Positions 24,536 through 41,492 of a stretch of DNA of 64,000 nt are shown piece after piece. Both the position numbers and the translations under genes were made by a program. Source of the stretch: Mustelus asterias (Eukaryota); contig NC_135830.1 of NCBI RefSeq assembly GCF_964213995.1, positions 10,974,001-11,038,000 of the forward strand. Reading direction: 5' to 3'. Each line of letters begins with the position of its first letter. The first letter of the stretch is position 1. The notes under the pieces are model-generated. The model was not told the DNA's origin and ran no database searches. It saw only the letters and a list, made by a program, of their open reading frames with translations.

Positions 24536-24624
24536 CCGTTCACTGGGACGGGAATCCAACAGTCCGGGAGCTGGTTTGTTCACTGAGTTTTTGACAAAAC
24601 CATTTCCTCCAAATGACAAGAAGG

Positions 24625-24670
24625 ATGAGCTCGGCGATTTCTCTCAGTTTGTTGCTGACTTTCTTATCCG
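24625..24670 (+). CDS. IGHV: IgM VH leader exon
   Basis: [15 protein letters not shown](G) followed by GTGAGT; in-frame upstream ATG at 24613. Confidence 0.93.
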
Positions 24671-27600
24671 GTGAGTAGTTGTTATTGTCCAAATCTCCCA
24701 CTGTTACTGTCTCAGTGTTATTCTATTGCTGGATTGTTTCAGAGTCAGGAATTATTTCCCCCGGATTAATCCTCGGGGTTTTTGATATTTTTACAGGTGT
24801 CCAGACGCAGGTTGTGTTCACTCAGCCGGAGGCAGCGACCGGGCGACCCGGAGATTTGGACAATAACAACTACTCACCGGATAAGAAAGTCAGCAACAAA
24901 CTGAGAGAAATCGCCGAGCTCATCCTTCTTGTCATTTGGAGGAAATGGTTTTGTCAAAAACTCAGTGAACAAACCAGCTCCCGGACTGTTGGATTCCCGT
25001 CCCACTGTAAAACCGGCGTCTTCCCTCTTTCTCACGCTTACATGTACTGGGTCCGACTCGTTCCCGGAAAGGAGCTGGAGTGGTTGGTTTTCTATCTTTC
25101 TTCCTCCAACAACAAGTACGCCCCAGGGATTCAGAATAGATTCGTTGCGTCCAAAGAGCTTTCAACCAATATATTCACTTTGGATATGAATAACCTGAAG
25201 AGCGAAGACACCGCCATCTATTACTGTGCATGGCAGACATCATTACCTGCGACGAATTTCGTCGACTTCTGGGGACCAGGAACCGCAGTGACAGTCACTG
25301 CAGGTAAGCGCATCGCATTTATTTAGTTACTGTTCTGCTTGAGTCTTTTAAAAATATTTTTCTCTATTTTGAAATGTCATTTGTTCACTGAAATGTGTGT
25401 TTGGTGGACACTGTATTGAGATTTGTTTTTACAATTGCATGTGATTCTGCTGAAAGGGGTTATAGAAGTGCGTTGTTTGTGGACAACGGGTGCTGCTGAC
25501 CTATCCGGTCCCTGACTGTTGTGACTTGGTGTTTATCTATGGGTATGCTTTGTGTCCGGGTTACTTTGAATATCTGTTAAACAGATTGTTGTTTCTACAG
25601 TGTGTCACCTCGGTGACGTCTGATTGCTACAGTTTTTCCGATCTAATGAAAACAGCAAAATGTTTAAATATGTTTTCAATATCACTGTCGTCAGAAATAT
25701 TTAGCAGTTAGATTTCTATAATCAAGTAGTTTTTGTGATAATTGGATTAGCATGTGTTAATATAACGCTCATGAATGCTCACATGCAATATTAAAAATCT
25801 CAACGCAATTAAAGGCTCTATTAGGTGCCCTTATTCAGATATACATTTATATAAAACTGCAATATCCATAATGCTCATGCTGTGGTTATATGATAAGATA
25901 TTAATAAATAATTATAATGTCACAATATTAGCTTGTTAAACATATTTCGTCGACTCACAGAAAGTAGTTGAGGACCAAAGATCGTATGTTTTCAAGAAGG
26001 AGTTAGATATAGCTCTTGAGACGAAAGTCATCAAAGGATATGTGGTGGGGGGGGGGGGAGGGGGAGGGGGGGAGGGGGGTGGGGAGGCGTTGTGGTAGGG
26101 ACCAGGAGTTGGGTAATCAACCATGATTAGACTGAAGAGCGTTGCAGGCTCGAAGGGCCGAATCATCCAATCCTGCTCCTGTTATCTTTGTTTCTGTGTT
26201 TTTCACAGTGCTGTCGCCAATATTCCCATTCTCTGTTATAAAAAAAAAATTATGATGTGGTGATGCCGGCGTTGGATTTGGGATAAGCACAGTACGAAGT
26301 CTCACAACACCAGGTTAAAGTCCAACAGGTTTATTTGGTAGCGTATGCATTCGGAGTATTGCTCTTTATTCACGTGAGTGAAGAGTTGCGTTCACAAACA
26401 GGACATACATAGACACAGACGCAATTTACAAGATAATGGTTGGAATACGAGTCTTTAGAGGTAATCAAGTATTGACGGTAGAGACAATGTTAGTGGAGAG
26501 AGGGTGAAGCACAGGTTAAAGAGGTGTGAATTGTCTCCAGCCAGGATAGTTACTGAGATTTTGCAAGCCCAGGCAAGTCGTGGGTGTTACAGATAGTGTG
26601 ACATGAACCCGAGATCCCGGTTGAGGCCGTCCTCATGTGTGCGGAACTTGGCTATCAGTTTTTGCTCAGCAATTCTGCGTTGTCATGTGGCGTGAAGGCC
26701 GCCTTGGAGAACGCTTACCCGAAGACGGGCATTCAGCCTCTGATTTTGGGTTCATGTCACTCGATCTGTAATCCCCATGAATTGCCTGGGCTTGCAAAAT
26801 CTCACTAACTGTCCTGGCTGGAGACAATTCACACGTCTTCAACCTGTGCTTAACCCTCTCTCCACTCAATTGTCTGTACCGGTAAAGACTTGACTACCTG
26901 TAAAGACTCGCATTCCAACCATGATCTGGTAAATTGAATCTGTGTCTGTGTATGCCCTGTTTCTGAACAAAACTCTTAACTCACTTGAAGAAGGAGCAAT
27001 ACTCCGAAAGCTTTTGCTGCCAAATAAACCTGTTGGACTTTTACCTGGTGTTGTGAGACTTCTTACTTTTTTGAATTATTCATTCGTTCTGTGACCAATG
27101 TCTGTCTGGCTGCTGCATTGCGATTTGCTTGTCATAATATATTTCATGCTGTTGGCAGTCTCCTTTTAGAATCATGTTGCTCCTCTTTGAAAGGGAATAA
27201 GGCAGTGGTTTGTTGTTTAGTTTTTGAAAAGTGTGTGCTCCGGACCTGCTTTGCATGATGAATGTTTGTGAAATTCTTTGGCGGTTATGCATTGTTTAAA
27301 GACAGTGACATGGAGCAGTTGCATATTTTCTGATCAAATGCAAATGTTGCACCTTTTTAAAGGCGATTGGTTGAATGAAAGGGGCCGGTTTCAGAGTGAA
27401 AAATTATGTTTTAAATGATGCCTCCATGCATGATTGAAATATTAGTGAAAATGGCATGTTGGATCATTAAGCGTTCATTTAGCACGTGATTTTGAATACA
27501 ATTACAATCTGTATAATTTGCAAATTGGAGAGTAAAATGAATTTAATTGAAACAATTAAAGTATGGTAAGTCTCTCAACGTTAATTAAATATGTAATTTT

Positions 27601-30600: not shown

Positions 30601-33600
30601 CATCACTGAATTTTGCCTCCTTATATGCTTTTTATCTTGCAACTTAATACTCTCCTTGGTTAACCATGGTTGGTTTATCCCTCTCTGAGATTGTTTCATC
30701 CTTTCTAGGATATATTTTTGCTGAGAGTCATTAATTGCTTCCTTAAATATCTGCACTACTTGCTTCTTATATTTCTGGCTAATTTATTCATCCAGTTCTC
30801 TTTAGCTAATTCTATCTTCATTTCATTGTCATTACTTTACTTAACTTAAACACAGTTGTTTCGGACCCAAATGTTTCACTCTCAAACTGAATATTAAATT
30901 CGATCACGTTTTGATCACTACTTTCTCGGGAATATCTTCGTCTGAGGTTATTTATTAAACTTGCCTCATTACCCCTTGGAAGATCGATAGTAGATTTTTC
31001 CCTGGTTGGTTCCATGACATTTTGCTCTCGGAAACTATCCATTAGGCACTCTCTGAGTTCGTTGTCCTAGCTTTCATTTCCAACCTGATGAGCCCAATCA
31101 ACATGAAATTAAATTGACCCATAATTATTGCTCCAATATATTTATATGCACTTACTATTTTCAAGTTATACCCTTTCCTATGGCGTGGCGACTGTTTGGT
31201 TGTCTATACACTACTCCCAACAATGTCTTCTTTCCTTGCTGTTTTTTACCTCCATCCAAATAAACAGGGATAACAGTGTCTAACTTGTGCAATTGATTTT
31301 TTGTTTTCGCAGCCTCACCGTCTCCACCCTCCCTCTATGGACTGTTCTCCTCCAGTGAACAAACAAACGCAGCTGGTACCATGATCTACGGCTGTTTGGC
31401 AATGGACTATTTCCCAGAAATCACTAGCCTTGTCTGGAAGAAAAATCAAGTGGCGATCACCACTGGATTGAGGACGTACCCATCAGTGTTAAACAACAAG
31501 GGATCCCACACGCTGAGCAGCCAGTTAACCATAAAAGAGTCTGATATAGGAAGCAGCAAAATTTACTGCGAGGTGCGACGCAGTGAGTCGGCCTGGAAAA
31601 AGGAAATGCCAGGTTAGTCTGAGACACATGCAGTGGATTAGGTGTTGGTGATTTTATGGGGGTGAATTGTAAGCAGACAGGTACTAATTCTGGAGTATAT
31701 GATTATGAATTGAAGGTCTGTATTGTGTGAAATCTGTGTACTTATACTTGGTTTACTCTGGATAATCCTACTTTCCTTGTGACATTCAGTGCAGTCTCCT
31801 CATCACACTCTGCACCATGTACTGTTCCGGTGTCCTCAACGCACACATGCACTGTGTACAGTTTCAGTCCCTTCGCATAGTCAGTGCACTGTGCACAGTT
31901 CCGGTCTGCAGATCACCCTCAGTGCGTTGTGTACAGGTTTGAACTGCAGATCATACTCAGTGCGTTGTGTAAAGTTCTGGACTGCAGATCGCTCCCAGTG
32001 AATTGTGTACAGTTCTAGTCTGCAGACCACACAGTGCCATGTGTACAATTATGGTCTCCAGATCACACGCGGTGCATTGTGTACAGTTGGTGCCTTCATG
32101 TCACACCTTGAATCCTATGTACAGTTGTGGCTTCCACATTGGGAAGTTGATACAGGGGCCATGGAGTAGATGCTTGCCTATTTACGATGAGACCAGAACT
32201 GATCATGTATAATATCAATAAGGGGTGAATAAGTTGTTGGTCTTTTCTCTGCAGAAGAGAATTCTGAGGTGTGATGAAATCGAGGTGGTCAGCAGTTTAC
32301 CAAAACTAGAGCTAATGGAGAAAACAGAATGATTTTAAACTACAGGTTAGCAATTCAGAAAATTACTCACCAAAAATGCAACCCGTCAAGTAACACTTGT
32401 AGCAGTTGGGGCGTTAGAAACGCAGAACACGTGGTTCGGAACAGGTGTAGGTCATTCAACCCCTCGAGTTTCCCCCACCACGTGACAAGATCATGGCAGA
32501 TTTGATTGCGGTCGAATAGGTCGATGCAGTTACATCGATGCTCTGAAGAGGAACCTGAACAGATGCATGAGGGAAAATGTAAAGAAAGTTATTTTGATAC
32601 TGCCAGATAAAGTAGGGCGAGAAGAATTTTGTATGGAGCATAAACTCTGGCATTGAAGTGATGGACCGAGTGATCTGCTTTACAGTCGTTTTGACAACCA
32701 ACCTACATTTTTTAATTGTTTGGCCTTTATCTTATGTTTGTAAATTGTTTGGTCTGCAACAAGATTAAATGCCAATAACATGTATTTTCTTGAAGATCGT
32801 GTGATCTATTATCCAACTGTAATCCTCACGTTGAGTTCCAGTGAAGAGATCACAAGCAGCAGACTTGCAACCTTCGTCTGTTCCATCGTTGATTTTTGTC
32901 CAAAGTCAATGACGGTGAAGTGGCTGAAGAATGGACAACCCATAGATTCAGGAATTGTAACCTCCCCCGCCTTTAACGTGAACGGGAACTTCTCGGCGAG
33001 CAGCCGGCTCACAGTCCCCGCTGGGGAATGGTTCAGAAAAGCGGTCTATACCTGCCAGGTCACTCATCAAGGGCTCACTCAAAATCGTAACATCAGCAGA
33101 TCTCAAGGTAAGAGACACAACCCTTGAAATTTGGGGTGATAGGGAGCGCCAATCTCAGTCACACGCAAGATTCTTATTGGAATAATGAAAGCAATTCCCA
33201 CCATTAATTAATTTCCTTTACAATCGTGCGGGTCCTTTTCCCTTCCAATGTAAAAGGAAATACAGTACATTCCTTTCTTACAGCGTCTTTACAAACATCA
33301 GGTTGTCCCAAAATACTCACAGTCTAATTTAGAGATGAGCTCATTGCAGTGTGGACAATTTAGCATCTCTCTGTTGTGGAGAAAACTCTCAGAAAAAACC
33401 TTTTGTTTCACTCCGTTTGTTGAGGAACGCATTTTGACGAAGAAACAATCAAATGTGTCGATGTTTTCCAGCGTTCTGTGTCTATTTTCCAGATTCCCGG
33501 CATCTGCAGTATTTCACTTTAATAGCTGAAAGACCTAGCCTGGTTTCCTTCCCATTGCCCTGGGAATTTTAATGTGACAACAACGAAGCCGATTTCGGCA

Positions 33601-36600
33601 TAATGTCTGATGTCAAAGTTGGCAATTGGCAGGATACAATACTTGCTCAATAGTACATTGCTGGTGCCAGCTCACTTTTCAAACATCCAGAAGGGAAGTA
33701 ACAACAGATCTTTCTGAATGGAATTCTTCTGTGTTCTGGATTCCATTACCTCACAGAATGAGGCGATGTTCTGTTCCAATGCTGCATGATGACTGAGGAT
33801 CGTGGGTTTCAGTTTTCCCCGAAATTCATTAGACGATATTAGATACCTGCAAACCTTTATTAAAATTGTCCATGATTCCACTTGCAATTTCTCACGTCAT
33901 TCCACTTCTGTGTTCAGTTTAAGCCCCAGCATGATAAGTTCACAGATGAAGCTTGCATTCCCTTGAGTATAAAAGATTAATGGGTAATCCACTCTGAACC
34001 CAAGCGACATTCTGTGAATTTCGCCTCAAATTCCCCAGTAATCGTCAAAGCAGCGTTTTCAAACTCCTCTCCCAAAGTGCTTTAAAATCGACTTTCACAA
34101 AATTGGTTTCCACCAGCAGTTTGCGTTGCAAAGCCATTCCAGTTATTCTAACCTACTCTTTCGAAGAAAGCTTAACAATGAATTCCGCATCCAGGTTTTA
34201 CATCGCTTTCTTTAGGATCTTTTTTTTTGTCTTTACTATTGTAAGAATTCTTCACAGTTACTTGTACTATCATTTTCCATACTCCATGAAAATGGCATGG
34301 AACGTTTGATTTACTTCCGTAGACTGCCTTCCCATCTTAAATCTTGTTACTGCGACTGTCTCTTCAGCTCAGAATAAGTTACCTGCTTTTCCCTTGAATT
34401 CCCCTGACCAGGACCTTGGTCTCTGTTCCGTTAACCTCAGTCTTTGTAAGACCTTCCCTCTGTCCTAATTCACCTGCTGCCTGTTCACTTTATCAGGTTC
34501 ATTGGGAAGTCTGCCTATTGCAGCCCCCTTGCCCTGTCCAGCTTTATTTTTCCCGTAGAGTTGATCGGCGTTCACTCCCCAGTGACCTATCTCCAACTTC
34601 TTTGGCTTCCAGTTAAATTAAAAACAAAAGAGACCCCTTCAATCTAAAAAGTGATTACTAAGCAACTGTCAGCTTTTCACGCTGTAACCATTCTAAGCAC
34701 AATAGAATCAGAGTTTGAATAGAAACCAAAATCCGCACACATTTGAACAACTCTGTCTAGCGTGCATCTAAATCTAGCTTTATGTTTCCTTGCACAGAAA
34801 GACGAAATTAAACGAACTTATTCCTGATCAGCTTGTTTCTAATCTTTACAGTACAGATACAAATCCCTTAAAACAGTACATTCCACTAGATGTGTTGAGG
34901 CTGGGACTCCTCCGTGATCCTTTCGCTGCCTTGTTTATCAAGAATCTGTCTTGCTGTGCCTTAAAAATATTAAAAGACACTGCTTCCACTGCATTTTCAA
35001 GAGGTGTTCCAAATAATCGCGACCCTCTGAGAGAATAAAAAAAACAATATCCTCATCTGTGCCTTAATCAGCAACCCTTTGTTTTCACACAGTAACTCTC
35101 AATTCTAGAGTCTCCCACAGAGTCAGGCATTTCCTCCACATCAATCTTCTCAAATCGCTCAGGATATTCAAGGTTTTAATCAAGTCAACTCTTACTATTC
35201 CAAAATCCAGTGAATGCAAAGCTCGCCCTTCCAATGTTTCCTCAAAAGACAGCCCACCCAATTTAGGTATTAGTCTAGTAAACCGTCCCTGAACTATTAA
35301 TCACACGTTAACATAACTCTTTATATAGGGAGACTAATAGTGTACACAATGCTCCAGATGTGGTCTCACTAACTGCCCATACCACCTGAAACTTAACAAT
35401 CCTGCTCTTGGATTGAATTCCACTCGCAGTCAACGAAAACAGATATTACATTTGCGAATTAGTTACTATAGCTGCATAGCAGCCTTTTGTGATTCATGCA
35501 CTTCGAAATTAAAATTCATCTGCACCTCAGAGCTCTACAATCTGGTAACATTTGAATAACATGTATCTTTTTATTCCGCCTGCCAGAATGGACAATGTCA
35601 TTGCTTCCCACATTGCACTCCATTTAACAAATCTTAGCCCACTCACTTAACCTATCTATATGTTTTTGTAATCTCCTTACCTGCTCGGCATAACTTAGTT
35701 TTCAACCTATAATTGTGCCAGTAGCAAATTAAGCCACCACCACTTCAACACGTTCATCCAATTCACATGCAATTTCCAACATATTTGGACCCCAGCAATG
35801 GTCCCTATGGTGCACGACTCTTTACACCTTGCCAAACACGAATAGACGAATTGATGCCAACTCTCTTTCCTGCTTGATAGCTAATCTTCTATCTTTGCCA
35901 ATGAGTTATCCCCGAAATAATAGGCTTTAATTTTACGCAAAACCATCTGGAGCTCCAAGTACAGCACATTCGCCAATTTCCAGTTATTCAGGGACTACAG
36001 GGACTACAGGGAATGGATGTGGTAATGGGACAAGCTGCCTTTCCAATCTCTGACTTCAAAGGCAAAAGCTTTAGAAGGCTAAATAGCTACCTTATTTAAT
36101 GTAATCATACGATGATCCTTTAACCCCTGATTTTGGGGCGAGCGAAATTCAGCCCGAAACATAAGTGCTCATAAATCCATTCCATTTGTTACACGGGACA
36201 TTTATTTCAGTGATTCAACTGGCGCTCTGGGAGCAACTACGCAGGAAATATTATGGAGTTTCCCGGAATTGTTCTAAGTCACTGTCCTTCAAATAAGAAT
36301 GGCGTTTACGCGATACCAGGCGAATGAGTATAACAAATATGTATTCCCATTGAAAGTGAGTTAACTGAACACCGGTGATTTGAATCTGAAGATAATGTTT
36401 GGATTAATTTTCGTTTCTGTTTGACAGGTGATTCTACGTGCAGCGATCCCATAATCACTCTGCTGCCTCCGACAATAGAGCAGGTTTTACTGGAGGCGAT
36501 CGTGACCTTAACCTGCATCGTGGCTAATGCTCCTTATGGAGTCAAGGTGTCCTGGAGCCAAGAAAAGAAGCCTTTGACGTCAGAGATTGCAGTCCGGCTT

Positions 36601-39600
36601 GGAGAGGATCCAGAAAGCGTGGGCAGCCACTTAAGCATCTCGACACAAGCTTGGCTGAGTGGAGCTGTGTTTGACTGCTTGGTGAGCCACGAGGATCTGC
36701 CGACTCCTTTGAGAAAATCCATCTACAAGGAAACAGGTGAGCGGCGAAACTGAAGCAATAGGTCATGCATTTTGTCTGTTTACGTTGCCAATAAAAGGAG
36801 AAGCTTTCCGATGGACTTGATTGATTTAGTGGACAAATTAGATGTGCCAACTTGTACTTCCTTCCACTGAGCGCTGTGCGACAAAAGGTGATGAATTATA
36901 GGGAAATCAAGATAGGCATATGAAACAGAAAGGAATGACAGGATTTGCTTACAAGATGGAAAGTGGCTGGTGTGAATAATAAATGCCAGCATTGAACAGT
37001 TGGGCCGAATGACATGATAAAAACATACAAACATACAATGCCAGTTTCCAGTTCAACTCTAGAATTTCTCAGGGAGAAGGAATTCACCCGCTCAGCTTGA
37101 AAACAGAACAGTCACCAGAGGGGAATATGGCAATGTTTTGTATTTTGCTGCAAAGCATGTTTCTTTCATCTTTTGTCTCAGGAATTCTCCAGTGTGCTTA
37201 CATCTAATGAACATTTTCTGCAGATCCAAATCCGCTGAAACCGTACGTCTCTGTCCTCCTGCCCTCGGCAGAAGAAGTCTCCGCTCAGAGATTCGTCTCC
37301 CTCAGCTGCTTAGTGAGAGGTTTCTCTCCCAGAGAGATCTTCGTCAAATGGACCGTCGATGACACGCCGCTGAATCCTGAGAACTACAAGAACACCGAGG
37401 TGGTGGCGGAGAATGGCAATCGCTCATTCTTCATGTACAGCCTGTTGTCCATTGCAGCAGAGGAGTGGGACAGCAGCACTTCTTATTCCTGTGTGGTGGG
37501 ACATGAAGCCATCCCTTTGAAGATCATCAACAGAACGGTTAATAAATCCAGCGGTAAATCGTGTTTTGTGAACATTTCCAATTATTCTCAATGAGAAACT
37601 CCATATTGCATTTCCGACGTTAAAAAAATAAAATCATTTTGCTCTACTTGTGTGTTAAAATACATCAGACGAATTACTTTTGTTTCCCATATTTGTCAAG
37701 GGGAGAACTGTTAGGTTAAAGTAGGATAGTTGTCAGACTTATGCCCCAGTCTTAGAGAGCCAGTTCGCCAGATTGAGATACAACACTAAGCGGACACGGC
37801 TGATGGTTAGTAAATCCGTGATTCCACTGAGTAACTTCAGCAACATTCTTCCAGTTGCTGGGAGATGTGAAAAAGTTCAATTTCCGAGAAATAAATGCAT
37901 AAACTTTCAGTACAAATATCTCATTTCTAGTTTTTTGTCAATCCCATCAAAGTATTAAAACTAAAGTGAGAACTAAATAAGAATAGGAACCTGAATTATA
38001 ATCCCAACTGCAGATGTGGGAAATGACAATTTAAACCCACTCTGCATTGACTTCACCAACAGACAGAGAGAGGGAAAAGAACAACTGTTAACTCATTATT
38101 ACTCTGCAGAGAGGAGAAAGGGCAATTCTTAACCAACGATGCACAGACTCGGCAACCGCTTACTACCCTCTGAACTCAGTTACCATTGGCATCAAAATGG
38201 GCTTCCATCTCACTGCCTGAAGATTTAAAACCTGCTTCATGGGAATCATGTGCAACATGCATATGTATGCAGCACAACATAATGCAAACATTTCTGGTTA
38301 CATTTGTCCCTCCTAATCATATGATAAATTGAATTTGAATGACCCAATAATTCACTGGTGATTGGATCCTACCAGTTGCTTCTGTTTTTCCACTTACATT
38401 CCGAGGGCTGCTGACTGAACTGTTAATTTCATTCGGCTAAAATCACATTACAGCCCGCATTGAAATATATCTATGACCAGAAAAAGGCAAGTATTGCAGT
38501 AACACAAACCGACAGGGCCACCTTGAGTTCATAGTGCTCGCCTAAACTTGCAGGAATAATAGAAATGCTCACATACTGACACAGGCATACAAACAGACAG
38601 ATACACCGACAAATACATCTCCACAAACACACTCAGACTCAGGAGCAAACACAGCCGATAATATTAATAACCCATCCCCTCTCATGAATTCAAACACATT
38701 CATGTTAAAACTGTTATATAAAGTGACACAGACATGGACATACATGCACGTACATCAAGAAATGCGGGCATTCGTAAATACAAGCCAGCATGTATTAATA
38801 CATTCACAGGCCCAAACAGAGACACAAACATGAGCATGCTCGCAGATACAAGAAAACAAACACAAGTAAAGATACCTCCTAGCACACCGAGATACATTAA
38901 CATTCACCAACACGTACATATAGACATTCATGTACATAGAATATCAAGCGCACACATGAAGACAGAAACATTAAGATGCTCACTTACACAGCGATACACA
39001 AATTGTTCCATAACCATAAGCACTAACACATGATCATATCAGCCCACCTCATTAGGTACATTAATACAGAAGCATAGACATTGATACATAAACGCACCCG
39101 ATAAACACTCACTTGCTAACAATGATAAGCACACATAAAAACTGACACATTAGCACACACGTGCATGCATAGCGATTAATAACTACAAAATACACTTATT
39201 AATGAAGGCAAATAAATGCACATAATATACCTAATTTTCAGATAAACATGTACATTATCTTTCATACTCCCGTATGTTAGAACAGAACTTGAGCATCACT
39301 GAACAAAGAGATATGTCACAGACATCTTGCGCTCAGCAGGACATTCACACGACCACCAAACATATATCAATTAATGATAGTGGTGAGTGTGGCGCACCTA
39401 ACGCCATAAAGTTGCATACATTGAAACTCAGAGCCCTATTCTATTGAGACAGAAAGAACATGTACACGCGTTGTGTCTTTCCTCTGAACAAAATAGGCGA
39501 CAGCCGTGCTCAGGTTCATTTCTCAGAGTCAAGCTGCCTGGTTTGAATTTAAACAAAACATGGTAGTTAACATTGAGTCAACATTTAGCTACTACATTCA

Positions 39601-41492
39601 CCTTGGAAAATCTCTACCCATCGGAGTCCATTTGCCAACCAATCAACACTCTCTTCTTGTTAAAAATAACTTGTAATCCCCTTCACATTTTGTAGTCCTA
39701 CGATTGCAAACACTAAAGCCCAAGCAGTCAGGAACGTCAGGCAAGAGGTGGCATTTAATTCAAAGTGTATTTTTAATGGGCACATTCTGTAAAACCTGAT
39801 TCTAATACATGTTGGTCTGTCAAAGACGGAACCATGTTCTCCTTCAGAAACCTAGATAAGTTAATAATTTGCCCAACACAAACGAACCAAAAATATAACT
39901 CATCTGATCATCATGGATAATATTTCACAGTAGTAACCTGAATTTTTCTCAAAAATTGTAAATCGTAAGAACATAAGACTTTCTTTCAGGACTAGACCAT
40001 AGACGCAATGTGCAATTCTTCAGCATTCAATAGAATAATGTCGGATATTGGGTCTCACTGCAATTTCCCATCCATTCCTCATATCCTTTGATTTCTTGAA
40101 AAAAATCAAAGATACATCTACCCTACCCCAACCAACGAATGTGAAGAATTCCCAAGATTCAAAACCACGTTTGAAAGAAAGTCTCCTCATCAGTCCCAAA
40201 CGACGCTCACACATCAAAAGACTGCACCCCCGTTTTTTGTTTTGCATTCGCCGACCAGCAGAAACAGTGACTGCCCTGTCAAACCCCTTCCGATTATTTG
40301 GTGTTTCAACGAGGGTTTTCTCACATTCTTCAACATTCGAGAGAATGTAGACCTAATTTATTCAACTCAGCTCAGTTAACTTCCCTCGCTTAGTCTTCAG
40401 AATATATTTGCTGATAGTCGGTACAAAATTAAAGCAGACTAAAAGAGCGTCTGACAATGAAGATAATGCATAATATTTTCGAACATAGAACATGAAATAA
40501 ACTCGGAGGTGCAGTTAGTAACATAGATATATTGCTGAGAATGATCAGTTAACGACAGATATATATTTTAAGTTGCATTAACTGATTAGATTATTAACAA
40601 ACAAACTTTAAAGATGACATTATAGAGCAAAATAATACCTGAACGAATATAAAAGTGAGAAAATCAATTTAAAAACGAAGGTAAAAGATAATACCAGTAT
40701 GACATCATGCATTAACAAATCAGTTAACGGTCTCCTCCTCGCCAACTCCACAGATTCCACGAACACAAGCTGGATTGAAGACAATGTGGATTATAACGGC
40801 AACATCTGGACAACCGCTTCCACATTCATCGTCCTGTTCTTCCTGAGCATGTCCTACAGCGCTGCAGTCACTCTGATGAAGGTGAGATGACCAATCTACT
40901 CACATTTCAAACTGAGAGAAAAATGGCGAAATGTTTTATTGATTAAAAACTCTAAATGTCTCAGATCATTAACATTTGCTTCAATATGTTATCTCTCTTT
41001 TACAGATCAAGTGATCGGTTGAATCTTTGGCCGCTGTTGATTTCCCTGAGCTGATTATTAAGATCTCTGTATAGCACCAATTCAAAGAGATAATTCAGCC
41101 CATTGAGTCTGCTCCGATTTACCAATAGAGCATTTACCCATCCCGATCCCCGTATTTAATTCCCCTAACCTGCACTAACCATGTCCAATCCACTTAATCT
41201 GCACACCCTTGGACTATGCGAGGAAACCCATGCAGTCACGGGGAAAACGTGCAAATTCCACACAGACAGGCACCCGAGCCTGGAATTGAACCCGAGTCCC
41301 TTGGTGCAGTGAAGCAGCAGTGCTAACGGCTGTGCCACCGTGCCGCCTTGATGATTCAATCTATTCACATTTCTAACTGACGGAAGCGGTTTGAAACATC
41401 TCCACAAGTCTTAATTGATAAACAACCTTTAGCTAAATGCTTCAAACACATGAAAAGTTTGCTCTTTTTTTCCTATTTTACAGGTCAAGTGA
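24625..41492 (+). CDS. IGHM: Immunoglobulin mu heavy-chain gene, germline-joined VDJ. Secreted form join(24625..24670,24797..25303,31313..31612,32796..33107,36428..36736,37224..37594); membrane form uses the 37553 donor, 40754..40881 and TM2
   Basis: All exons are open with GT/AG sites and compatible phase-1 junctions; sequences closely resemble shark IgM; the V carries a 51-codon in-frame insertion, so function is uncertain. Confidence 0.9.
24797..25303 (+). CDS. IGHV: Joined VH-D-JH exon with inverted insertion
   Basis: [19 protein letters not shown]-[51 aa insert]-[65 protein letters not shown], then GTAAGC; no RSS between V and J. Confidence 0.95.
24850..25004 (-). repeat. Perfect 155-bp inverted duplicate of 24544-24698
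   Basis: Base-by-base reverse complement, no mismatch found. Confidence 0.97.
26250..27066. mobile_element. Penelope-like fragment with long inverted terminal repeats in the J-C intron
   Basis: About 320-bp arms (about 26283-26610 vs about 26745-27066) around a minus-strand GIY-YIG C-terminal remnant homologous to 18900-19030. Confidence 0.8.
27955..28690 (-). mobile_element. CR1 LINE 3' fragment
   Basis: ORF 28213-28527: [40 protein letters not shown]. Confidence 0.9.
29825..30160 (+). mobile_element. tRNA-derived SINE (SacSINE/DeuSINE-like)
   Basis: Same family as 60178-60510. Confidence 0.7.
30160..31260 (-). mobile_element. Degenerate CR1 LINE ORF2 fragment
   Basis: ORF pieces [36 protein letters not shown] resemble the CR1 endonuclease/linker. 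Confidence 0.8.
31313..31612 (+). CDS. IGHM: IgM CH1 exon
   Basis: [58 protein letters not shown]; 300 nt, AG/GT flanked. Confidence 0.95.
31820..32130 (+). repeat. Degenerate approx. 37-38-bp tandem repeat (about 8-9 units) in the CH1-CH2 intron
   Basis: Recurring GTGTACAGTTC..CTGCAGATCAC..CAGTGC.TT units. Confidence 0.8.
32796..33107 (+). CDS. IGHM: IgM CH2 exon
   Basis: [50 protein letters not shown]; 312 nt. Confidence 0.95.
34890..35950 (-). mobile_element. Old degenerate CR1 LINE fragment
   Basis: Reverse-complement similarity to CR1 RT and 3' end (e.g. tgtacacaatgctccagatgtggtctcac). Confidence 0.65.
36428..36736 (+). CDS. IGHM: IgM CH3 exon
   Basis: [58 protein letters not shown]; 309 nt. 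Confidence 0.95.
37224..37594 (+). CDS. IGHM: IgM CH4 exon plus shortened secretory tail
   Basis: [60 protein letters not shown]|[13 protein letters not shown]; internal donor G|GTAAAT after 37553; AATAAA at 37627. Confidence 0.95.
40754..40881 (+). CDS. IGHM: IgM transmembrane exon TM1
   Basis: [42 protein letters not shown] with the conserved antigen-receptor TM motif; CAG acceptor, GTGAGA donor. Confidence 0.95.
41006..41014 (+). CDS. IGHM: TM2 exon candidate A (IK*)
   Basis: Polypyrimidine tract + TACAG|ATCAAGTGA. Confidence 0.6.
   Translation: MK
41070..41348 (-). mobile_element. HE1-like SINE
   Basis: Reverse complement of the GGCGGCACGGTGGCACAG.. head and core. Confidence 0.85.
41484..41492 (+). 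CDS. IGHM: TM2 exon candidate B (VK*)
   Basis: Polypyrimidine tract + TACAG|GTCAAGTGA gives the canonical KVK tail; AATAAA at 41821. Confidence 0.75.
   Translation, partial: VK

What the first reader, a model, noticed from the sequence alone, without database searches (positions are those of the whole stretch)
31340..31365. CH1 lacks the cysteine that normally bonds to light chain
Seen: [10 protein letters not shown] with AGT at 31354-31356. Established (from memory of shark and other IgM): the motif is LYGLxSSCxQ and this Cys makes the H-L disulfide. VH FR2 also reads [12 protein letters not shown], with Leu for the usual Gln and Glu for the usual Gly at VH-VL interface positions. Inference: light-chain-independent or non-covalent pairing, or pairing with another partner. 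Neutral decay is the alternative.
Basis: partly seen in the sequence, partly recalled or inferred. Interest (0 to 1): 0.7.

Follow-up and report, generated by a model that had tools for sequence, protein, structure and literature searches.

The report
Pre-joined shark IgM with rewired cysteines
This shark antibody gene is already assembled in the germline and lacks both the cysteine that normally locks the light chain on and the one that builds pentamers; two related species make spliced RNA with the first change, so it likely encodes a fixed-specificity, single-unit IgM that holds its light chain without a covalent bond.

Summary
AGT (Ser) at 31354-56 replaces the CH1 cysteine found in 95 of 97 informative IgM CH1 exons of this genome; only this gene and its near-identical twin have Ser. 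It is not private decay: spliced J-CH1-CH2-CH3 contigs from two other organisms keep the Ser, and their CH1 differences are enriched for silent changes (10 of 17). The gene is a germline-joined VDJ IgM with four C domains. Its secretory tail has a clean 21-nt in-frame deletion and has lost the penultimate (polymer/J-chain) cysteine, while CH2 and the tail each gained one. Light-chain independence is not supported: CH1 and most interface residues are kept, human mu C137S still needs light chain and pairs with it non-covalently, and nurse shark IgM1gj also lacks this cysteine yet is reported to pair with light chain. Best reading: a conserved, fixed-specificity, likely monomeric IgM subclass with non-covalent H-L pairing, convergent with IgM1gj rather than its orthologue. 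Main rival: the bond moved to the new CH2 cysteine. The window's own copy has a 150-nt inverted duplication in V FR1 and is probably crippled; the twin is intact.

The parts
24613..24670 (+). Leader exon (coding part)
   Evidence: ATG at 24613, GT donor
24797..25303 (+). Germline-joined V-D-J exon (CDR3 region [15 protein letters not shown]); no RSS after the YYC motif
   Evidence: part after the insertion identical to the twin; same joint in organism C contig
24854..25003 (-). 150-nt inverted copy of 24545-24694 (5' UTR, leader, start of intron) inserted in V FR1; net +138 nt, in frame; absent from the twin
25057..25074 (+). FR2 changes Gln>Leu (25057) and Gly>Glu (25072)
31313..31612 (+). 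CH1 exon, horn-shark-type lineage; only the two canonical Cys (31393, 31567)
31354..31356 (+). Ser (AGT) in place of the heavy-light Cys
   Evidence: kept in organisms A and C
32796..33107 (+). CH2 exon, closer in DNA to conventional clusters (86%) than to the horn-type ones (77%)
   Evidence: spliced in
32897..32899 (+). Extra Cys in the CH2 F-x-P loop (DFCPKS)
   Evidence: no difference listed in organism C contig
36428..36736 (+). CH3 exon with N-terminal extra Cys (36439), likely the heavy-heavy bond
   Evidence: kept in loose ends of X1, X3, X9
37224..37553 (+). CH4 exon
37554..37594 (+). Secretory tail (G)[12 protein letters not shown]: 21-nt in-frame deletion, penultimate Cys>Ser, new Cys at 37562; polyA signal at 37627
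40754..40881 (+). Transmembrane exon 1
41006..41014 (+). Transmembrane exon 2

Best explanation
This is a germline-joined shark IgM heavy-chain gene whose CH1 has Ser where the light-chain cysteine normally sits, a change kept in spliced transcripts of two related species; its chain likely still pairs with an ordinary light chain but non-covalently, and is predicted to be secreted as a monomer because the tail has also lost its polymer cysteine. Shown: the Ser, the joined VDJ, intact reading frames and GT-AG sites for both secreted and membrane forms, the tail deletion, spliced orthologue contigs. Inferred: CH1 still needs a light chain to fold and leave the ER; heavy chains are linked through the CH3 N-terminal Cys; no J-chain or pentamer forms; the product is a fixed-specificity antibody analogous to IgM1gj. 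The working copy is likely the twin at C71:4.72 Mb; the window's copy is probably crippled by the FR1 inversion.
For: Ser only in this gene and its twin, 2 of 97. Contigs of organism A (X1, X3; one study; CH1 14 differences in 302 nt) and organism C (X9; 7 in 302) are spliced J>CH1>CH2>CH3. Neither shows an A>T at 31354: X9 has no A>T at all, and the only A>T of X1/X3 is at 31449. 10 of 17 distinct CH1 differences are silent against an expected fraction of 0.22-0.28, P 0.001-0.007. All 6 introns are GT-AG and there are no internal stops in either form. Tail: 21-nt in-frame deletion with stop and polyA kept, penultimate TGT>TCT; 28 of 30 tails keep the Cys. CH1 strand residues resemble paralogues. 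Human mu C137S is not secreted alone, assembles with light chain non-covalently and is secreted normally (PMC11161108 section 3.11). Squamate IgM lost this Cys and is presumed to pair non-covalently, and IgM1gj pairs with a germline-joined sigma-2 light chain (PMC4279169 passages) although its CH1 has Asn here.
Against: No protein data. All 13 sampled lambda-like C exons and 1 other light-chain C exon keep their terminal Cys, so a free light-chain thiol would be left and could bond to the new CH2 Cys. Outside CH1 the listed orthologue differences are mostly amino-acid changing: V 5 of 5 listed (7 in all) in X9; CH2 4 of 5 codons in X1 (6 of 15 differences visible); and 3 of 4 C/TM-exon differences between window and twin. 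The tail and FR2 changes were seen only in the two copies of this genome; no run was laid on the tail and no orthologue piece was listed over FR2. The new tail Cys (37562) could still form inter-chain bonds. The runs are not on record as RNA; cDNA origin is inferred from the splice joints.
Confidence: 0.55

Rival explanations
1. The heavy-light disulfide was moved, not lost: the light chain's terminal Cys bonds to the new Cys in the CH2 F-x-P loop (32897), much as IgG1 uses a hinge Cys (recalled).
For: The CH2 Cys is unique among the intact clusters compared (Gln, Tyr or Arg in 5 others) and shows no difference in the organism C contig. By Ig-fold topology (recalled) this loop faces the bottom of CH1, where the light-chain C-terminus lies. 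[quoted passage not shown] Sampled light chains keep the terminal Cys, 14 of 14.
Against: The codon can arise from CGT (Arg in the horn-type paralogue L003) by one CpG transition, and the same TGT occurs in the pseudogene L004, whose CH2 does not group with this gene. In X1/X3 one T>C row is hidden, so the Cys is not certain there. No distance could be measured.
Confidence: 0.22
2. Relaxed selection: a germline-joined cluster is still transcribed but is decaying, and the cysteine changes are tolerated losses.
For: The window copy has a disruptive FR1 inversion that forms a long hairpin over the leader (-288 vs -78 kcal/mol for the twin). V and CH2 differences are mostly amino-acid changing. 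Other joined clusters in this genome are broken (C71:17.39 Mb). The long CH1 branch (0.28) shows fast change.
Against: Open frames and splice sites in all exons; silent excess in CH1; Ser, splicing pattern and, in organism C, the joined CDR3 are shared with other organisms; the tail deletion is in frame and keeps its stop.
Confidence: 0.13
3. A light-chain-free IgM, or one with a non-light-chain partner, that keeps CH1; the FR2 Gln>Leu and Gly>Glu changes are early steps toward a single-domain V.
For: CH1 has no spare Cys at all. Both FR2 changes are at VH-VL contact positions and are unique among 30 V loci. Glu44 is a camelid VHH hallmark (recalled). Sharks evolved a light-chain-free isotype, IgNAR.
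Against: The core VL-contact residues V37, L45, W47, Y91, W103 are unchanged; CH1 is kept and spliced in; its strand residues match light-chain-pairing paralogues; human C137S alone is retained in the ER; Glu44 also occurs in light-chain-pairing rabbit VH (recalled).
Confidence: 0.1

Closest known systems
Nurse shark IgM1gj (P0014)
   Same: Fully germline-joined VDJ on a mu-type C region; also lacks the canonical CH1 Cys (Asn); reported as monomers/dimers with a preferred germline-joined light chain (PMC4279169 passages).
   Different: IgM1gj lacks CH2, has two extra CH1 Cys and a normal tail with the penultimate Cys. This gene keeps and splices CH2, has no spare CH1 Cys and has a shortened tail. 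CH1 identity is only 51%, against 52-65% for IgM1gj vs the conventional clusters; a CH1 clade of the two is weakly rejected (p-AU 0.04).
Horn-shark-type IgM C region (Heterodontus P0002, Scyliorhinus torazame P0001, paralogue L003)
   Same: CH1 69-71% identical and grouped together with modest support (80-81% bootstrap); lacks the extra CH1 cysteines of conventional houndshark IgM.
   Different: These keep the H-L Cys; L003 has a split V with RSS and a normal tail.
Squamate IgM and human mu C137S
   Same: Same CH1 Cys absent; light chain still associates, non-covalently (presumed in lizards, PMC4279169; shown for C137S, PMC11161108).
   Different: Those use rearranging V genes; C137S still polymerises through its tail Cys.
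IgNAR and camelid heavy-chain antibodies
   Same: Glu at FR2 position 44 (VHH hallmark, recalled).
   Different: Here CH1 is of mu type and retained, and V37, L45, W47 are conventional.
tsIgH of Triakis scyllium (PMC10331284)
   Same: Single-exon V, few extra cysteines.
   Different: tsIgH is under 30% identical to IgM and has three C domains; this gene is 57-86% identical to Triakis IgM by domain.

Membership tests
Cartilaginous-fish IgM cluster | Four C-mu exons homologous to shark IgM plus secretory and TM exons | tested here: met
Cartilaginous-fish IgM cluster | CH1 Cys for the light-chain disulfide | tested here: not met
Cartilaginous-fish IgM cluster | Secretory tail with penultimate Cys | tested here: not met
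Germline-joined IgH gene | V, D and J fused in frame in genomic DNA, no RSS left, same joint in other individuals or species | tested here: met
   twin identical after the insertion; organism C contig has the same joint with 7 differences in 173 nt
IgM1gj | Germline-joined VDJ | tested here: met
   as above
IgM1gj | CH2 absent | tested here: not met
   CH2 exon present and spliced in X1, X3, X9
IgM1gj | Orthology (one clade with P0014) | tested here: not met
   CH1 p-AU 0.04; V and CH3 trees do not group them but are poorly resolved
IgM1gj | Neonatal and epigonal expression; pairing with a germline-joined light chain | not testable with these tools
   run tissues are coded; no protein data
Heavy-chain-only antibody (IgNAR/VHH type) | CH1 deleted, skipped or replaced by a homodimerising domain | tested here: not met
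   mu-type CH1 spliced in
Heavy-chain-only antibody (IgNAR/VHH type) | FR2 hallmark changes at 37, 44, 45, 47 | tested here: not met
   only position 44 changed (hallmark list recalled)
Heavy-chain-only antibody (IgNAR/VHH type) | Secretion without light chain | not testable with these tools
   needs expression

The most novel reading that the evidence does not exclude
A conserved shark lineage encodes a germline-fixed IgM that works without a conventional light chain while keeping CH1: another route to a light-chain-free antibody, caught part-way, and hard-wired as a monomer by its cut tail.
Probability: 0.1. Interest if true: 0.85.

Novelty: new variant of a known kind. Interest (0 to 1): 0.5.

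Why it matters
Sharks make both pentameric and monomeric IgM from the same kind of gene, and what the germline-joined antibodies do is still open. This gene would be a second germline-joined IgM, independent of IgM1gj, to lose the canonical light-chain cysteine, and it also loses the tail cysteine, which would fix the monomeric state in the DNA. With one fixed V and a known exon structure it can be expressed directly to ask which light chain it takes, how it is linked and what it binds. Loss of the CH1 cysteine alone has precedents, so it is the combination, and its conservation, that is of interest.

Tried and rejected
Private mutation or sequencing error at 31354: rejected (twin, X1, X3, X9). 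Orthology to IgM1gj: not supported. Identity with tsIgH: rejected. Three word-based protein searches and the representative search returned no orthologue protein; these searches are insensitive to this, so it is weak evidence of absence. The look-up of sequencing runs: no RNA holder listed. Contig depths cannot rank expression and were not used. A Cys-free partner light chain was not found among 14 light-chain C exons (13 of the C8 cluster and 1 on C13; kappa not sampled). PDB sequence searches gave only mammalian antibodies among the 60 rows shown in each. No structure or complex prediction was run: a CH1-CL pair would pass by likeness to solved Fabs and the tools give no distances. The search of earlier findings returned nothing. 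Whether the twin is an allele or a paralogue was not settled: the two align over about 47 kb at 94-99% and several C71 clusters occur as mirrored pairs, which fits either a retained haplotype or a real inverted duplication. The FR1 insertion's right junction lies in a 253-nt X5 contig with 0 differences, but with only about 30 letters on one side, below the tool's bridging rule, and X5 may be the assembly's source. Rumfelt 2001 and Castro 2013 were not held, so IgM1gj biochemistry is second-hand.

Full report
Observation. The stretch 31340-31365 lies in the CH1 exon (31313-31612) of an IgM heavy-chain cluster and reads [10 protein letters not shown], with AGT at 31354-56. A search of the window's genome gave 98 IgM-CH1-like hits (343 candidates, 150 scored). 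I fetched all 98. One lacked the N-terminus; 95 of the other 97 have Cys and 2 have Ser, the window and a twin at C71:4.72 Mb. Many of the 95 are identical copies on small contigs. In database proteins 15 of 16 chondrichthyan IgM CH1 rows have the Cys; nurse shark IgM1gj has Asn. Turtle and marmot mu chains align a Cys here, so this is by alignment the equivalent of human mu Cys136/137, which bonds to light chain (PMC7709107 passages; PMC11161108). The FR2 changes are real and unique among 30 V loci. Two conventional clusters of this genome match Triakis scyllium IgM at 83-96% per C domain, so the genome is probably a houndshark or close relative (inference).

Anatomy. Leader 24613-24670, V-D-J 24797-25303, CH1, CH2 32796-33107, CH3 36428-36736, CH4 37224-37553 with secretory tail to 37594, TM exons 40754-40881 and 41006-41014. 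All introns are GT-AG and both forms are open. The VDJ is joined in the genome with no RSS, whereas most other V exons are followed by one. Extra cysteines: none in CH1, one in the CH2 F-x-P loop (32897), one at the start of CH3 (36439), one early in the tail (37562). The tail has a 21-nt in-frame deletion, keeps its stop and polyA signal, and has TCT for the penultimate TGT; 28 of 30 tails examined keep that Cys, the other 2 being the window and twin. The penultimate Cys drives IgM polymerisation and J-chain binding in mammals (PMC7709107 passages).

The window's copy is damaged. A 150-nt inverted copy of its own 5' UTR, leader and intron start replaces the GSLRLT segment of FR1, net +138 nt and in frame. 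It would add 46 residues, spoil the strand before the first Cys (inferred) and fold the leader into a long hairpin (-288 against -78 kcal/mol). The twin has a normal FR1 and is otherwise 99-100% identical in exons. Whether it is an allele or a paralogue is unsettled.

Conservation and expression. In run X9 (organism C) a 607-nt contig matches the joined CDR3-J (7 differences in 173 nt) and runs straight into CH1, then CH2 across a GT-AG intron, and another contig continues into CH3. In X1 and X3 (organism A, one study) a 1268-nt contig does the same. CH1 differs at 7 and 14 of 302 nt. Cys would need A>T at 31354; X9 has no A>T, and the single A>T of X1/X3 is at 31449, so Ser is kept in both organisms (one T>C row is hidden and would be silent at this codon). 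The runs are not on record as RNA; cDNA origin is inferred from the joints. Of 17 distinct CH1 differences (13 of 14 visible in X1, 7 of 7 in X9, 3 shared, one also polymorphic between window and twin) 10 are silent, P 0.001-0.007 against neutral expectation. Against this, the visible differences in V (5 of 5) and CH2 (5 of 7 codons over both organisms) mostly change amino acids. FR2 and the tail were not seen in orthologues.

Relationships. CH1 groups with the horn-shark-type C regions (P0001, P0002, P0003, L003, L004) at modest support, while IgM1gj groups with conventional IgM; forcing the two together is weakly rejected (p-AU 0.04). CH2 DNA is nearer conventional clusters (86%) than horn-type ones (77%), which suggests a mosaic made by gene conversion (inferred). 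So this gene and IgM1gj likely lost the cysteine separately.

Mechanism. Loss of this Cys does not free a mu chain from light chain: human C137S is retained alone, and with light chain assembles non-covalently and is secreted normally (PMC11161108, section 3.11 read). Squamate IgM has the same loss (PMC4279169 passage; a gecko preprint, 10.64898/2026.02.13.705754, passages, models compensation). Here CH1 is kept with paralogue-like strand residues and VH keeps the hydrophobic VL-contact core (numbering and hallmarks recalled). I therefore favour non-covalent H-L pairing, heavy-heavy linkage through the CH3 Cys and monomeric secretion (0.55). The strongest rival is relocation of the bond to the CH2 Cys (0.22): the loop should face the light-chain C-terminus (recalled topology), sampled light chains keep their Cys (14 of 14), and IgM1gj is considered to use substitute CH1 cysteines (PMC10331284, first of two parts read); but the codon is one CpG step from Arg and recurs in a pseudogene. 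Relaxed decay (0.13) and a light-chain-free form (0.10) remain.

Novelty. Five full-text searches listed no paper whose title or abstract start describes a four-domain germline-joined shark IgM lacking these cysteines. I read passages of PMC4279169, PMC5192425, PMC12227049 and PMC7709107 and saw the rest as listings only. Subscription papers on houndshark, dogfish and catshark IgM, and Rumfelt 2001 and Castro 2013, were not available and could mention it; no supplements were read. Verdict: a real, conserved variant of a known kind; interest 0.5.

Noticed in passing
window 24854-25003 vs 24545-24694: Templated inverted duplication of the gene's own 5' UTR and leader inside V FR1, with a 4-nt GGAG microhomology at the left junction; in frame, makes a self-antisense hairpin; absent from the twin.
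   Followed up: yes
window 37554-37594: Secretory tail shortened by 7 residues, penultimate Cys lost, new Cys two residues into the tail, N-glycosylation site kept.
   Followed up: partly
P0014 (nurse shark IgM1gj) CH1: Also lacks the canonical heavy-light Cys (Asn) and has a Cys-Cys pair later in CH1.
   Followed up: partly
L154-L155 (G000:C71:17.395-17.405 Mb); L157 (C71:9.509 Mb): Another germline-joined V, with a TAG stop, followed by CH3 and CH4 with no CH1 or CH2 detected between them; a close V relative at 9.5 Mb. Its FR2 also departs from the usual sequence.
   Followed up: partly
L120 and L152 (G000:C166:442801-461800): An in-frame joined VDJ on a conventional C region that keeps the CH1 Cys; tail slightly changed but with its Cys. 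Several other clusters are partly (V-D) joined (L118, L119, L121, L122, L137, L138).
   Followed up: no
L034-L036 (G000:C71:1.56-1.58 Mb): Intact horn-shark-type C-mu cluster driven by a very divergent V (43% to this V) with RSS; a pseudogene neighbour at 1.51 Mb has both the CH1 Cys and the CH2 loop Cys.
   Followed up: partly
G000:C71:4.7-5.4 Mb vs 10.6-11.0 Mb: IgM clusters occur as mirrored pairs with equal scores, and many more identical copies sit on small contigs: retained haplotypes or a large inverted duplication.
   Followed up: partly
P0035 (Pristiophorus japonicus model): Joined V with Glu at FR2 position 44 and a long Cys-containing CDR3; the gene model has no recognisable CH1 (may be a modelling error).
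   Followed up: no
window 31881-32095: 38-nt tandem repeat, about 5.5 copies, in the CH1-CH2 intron.
   Followed up: no
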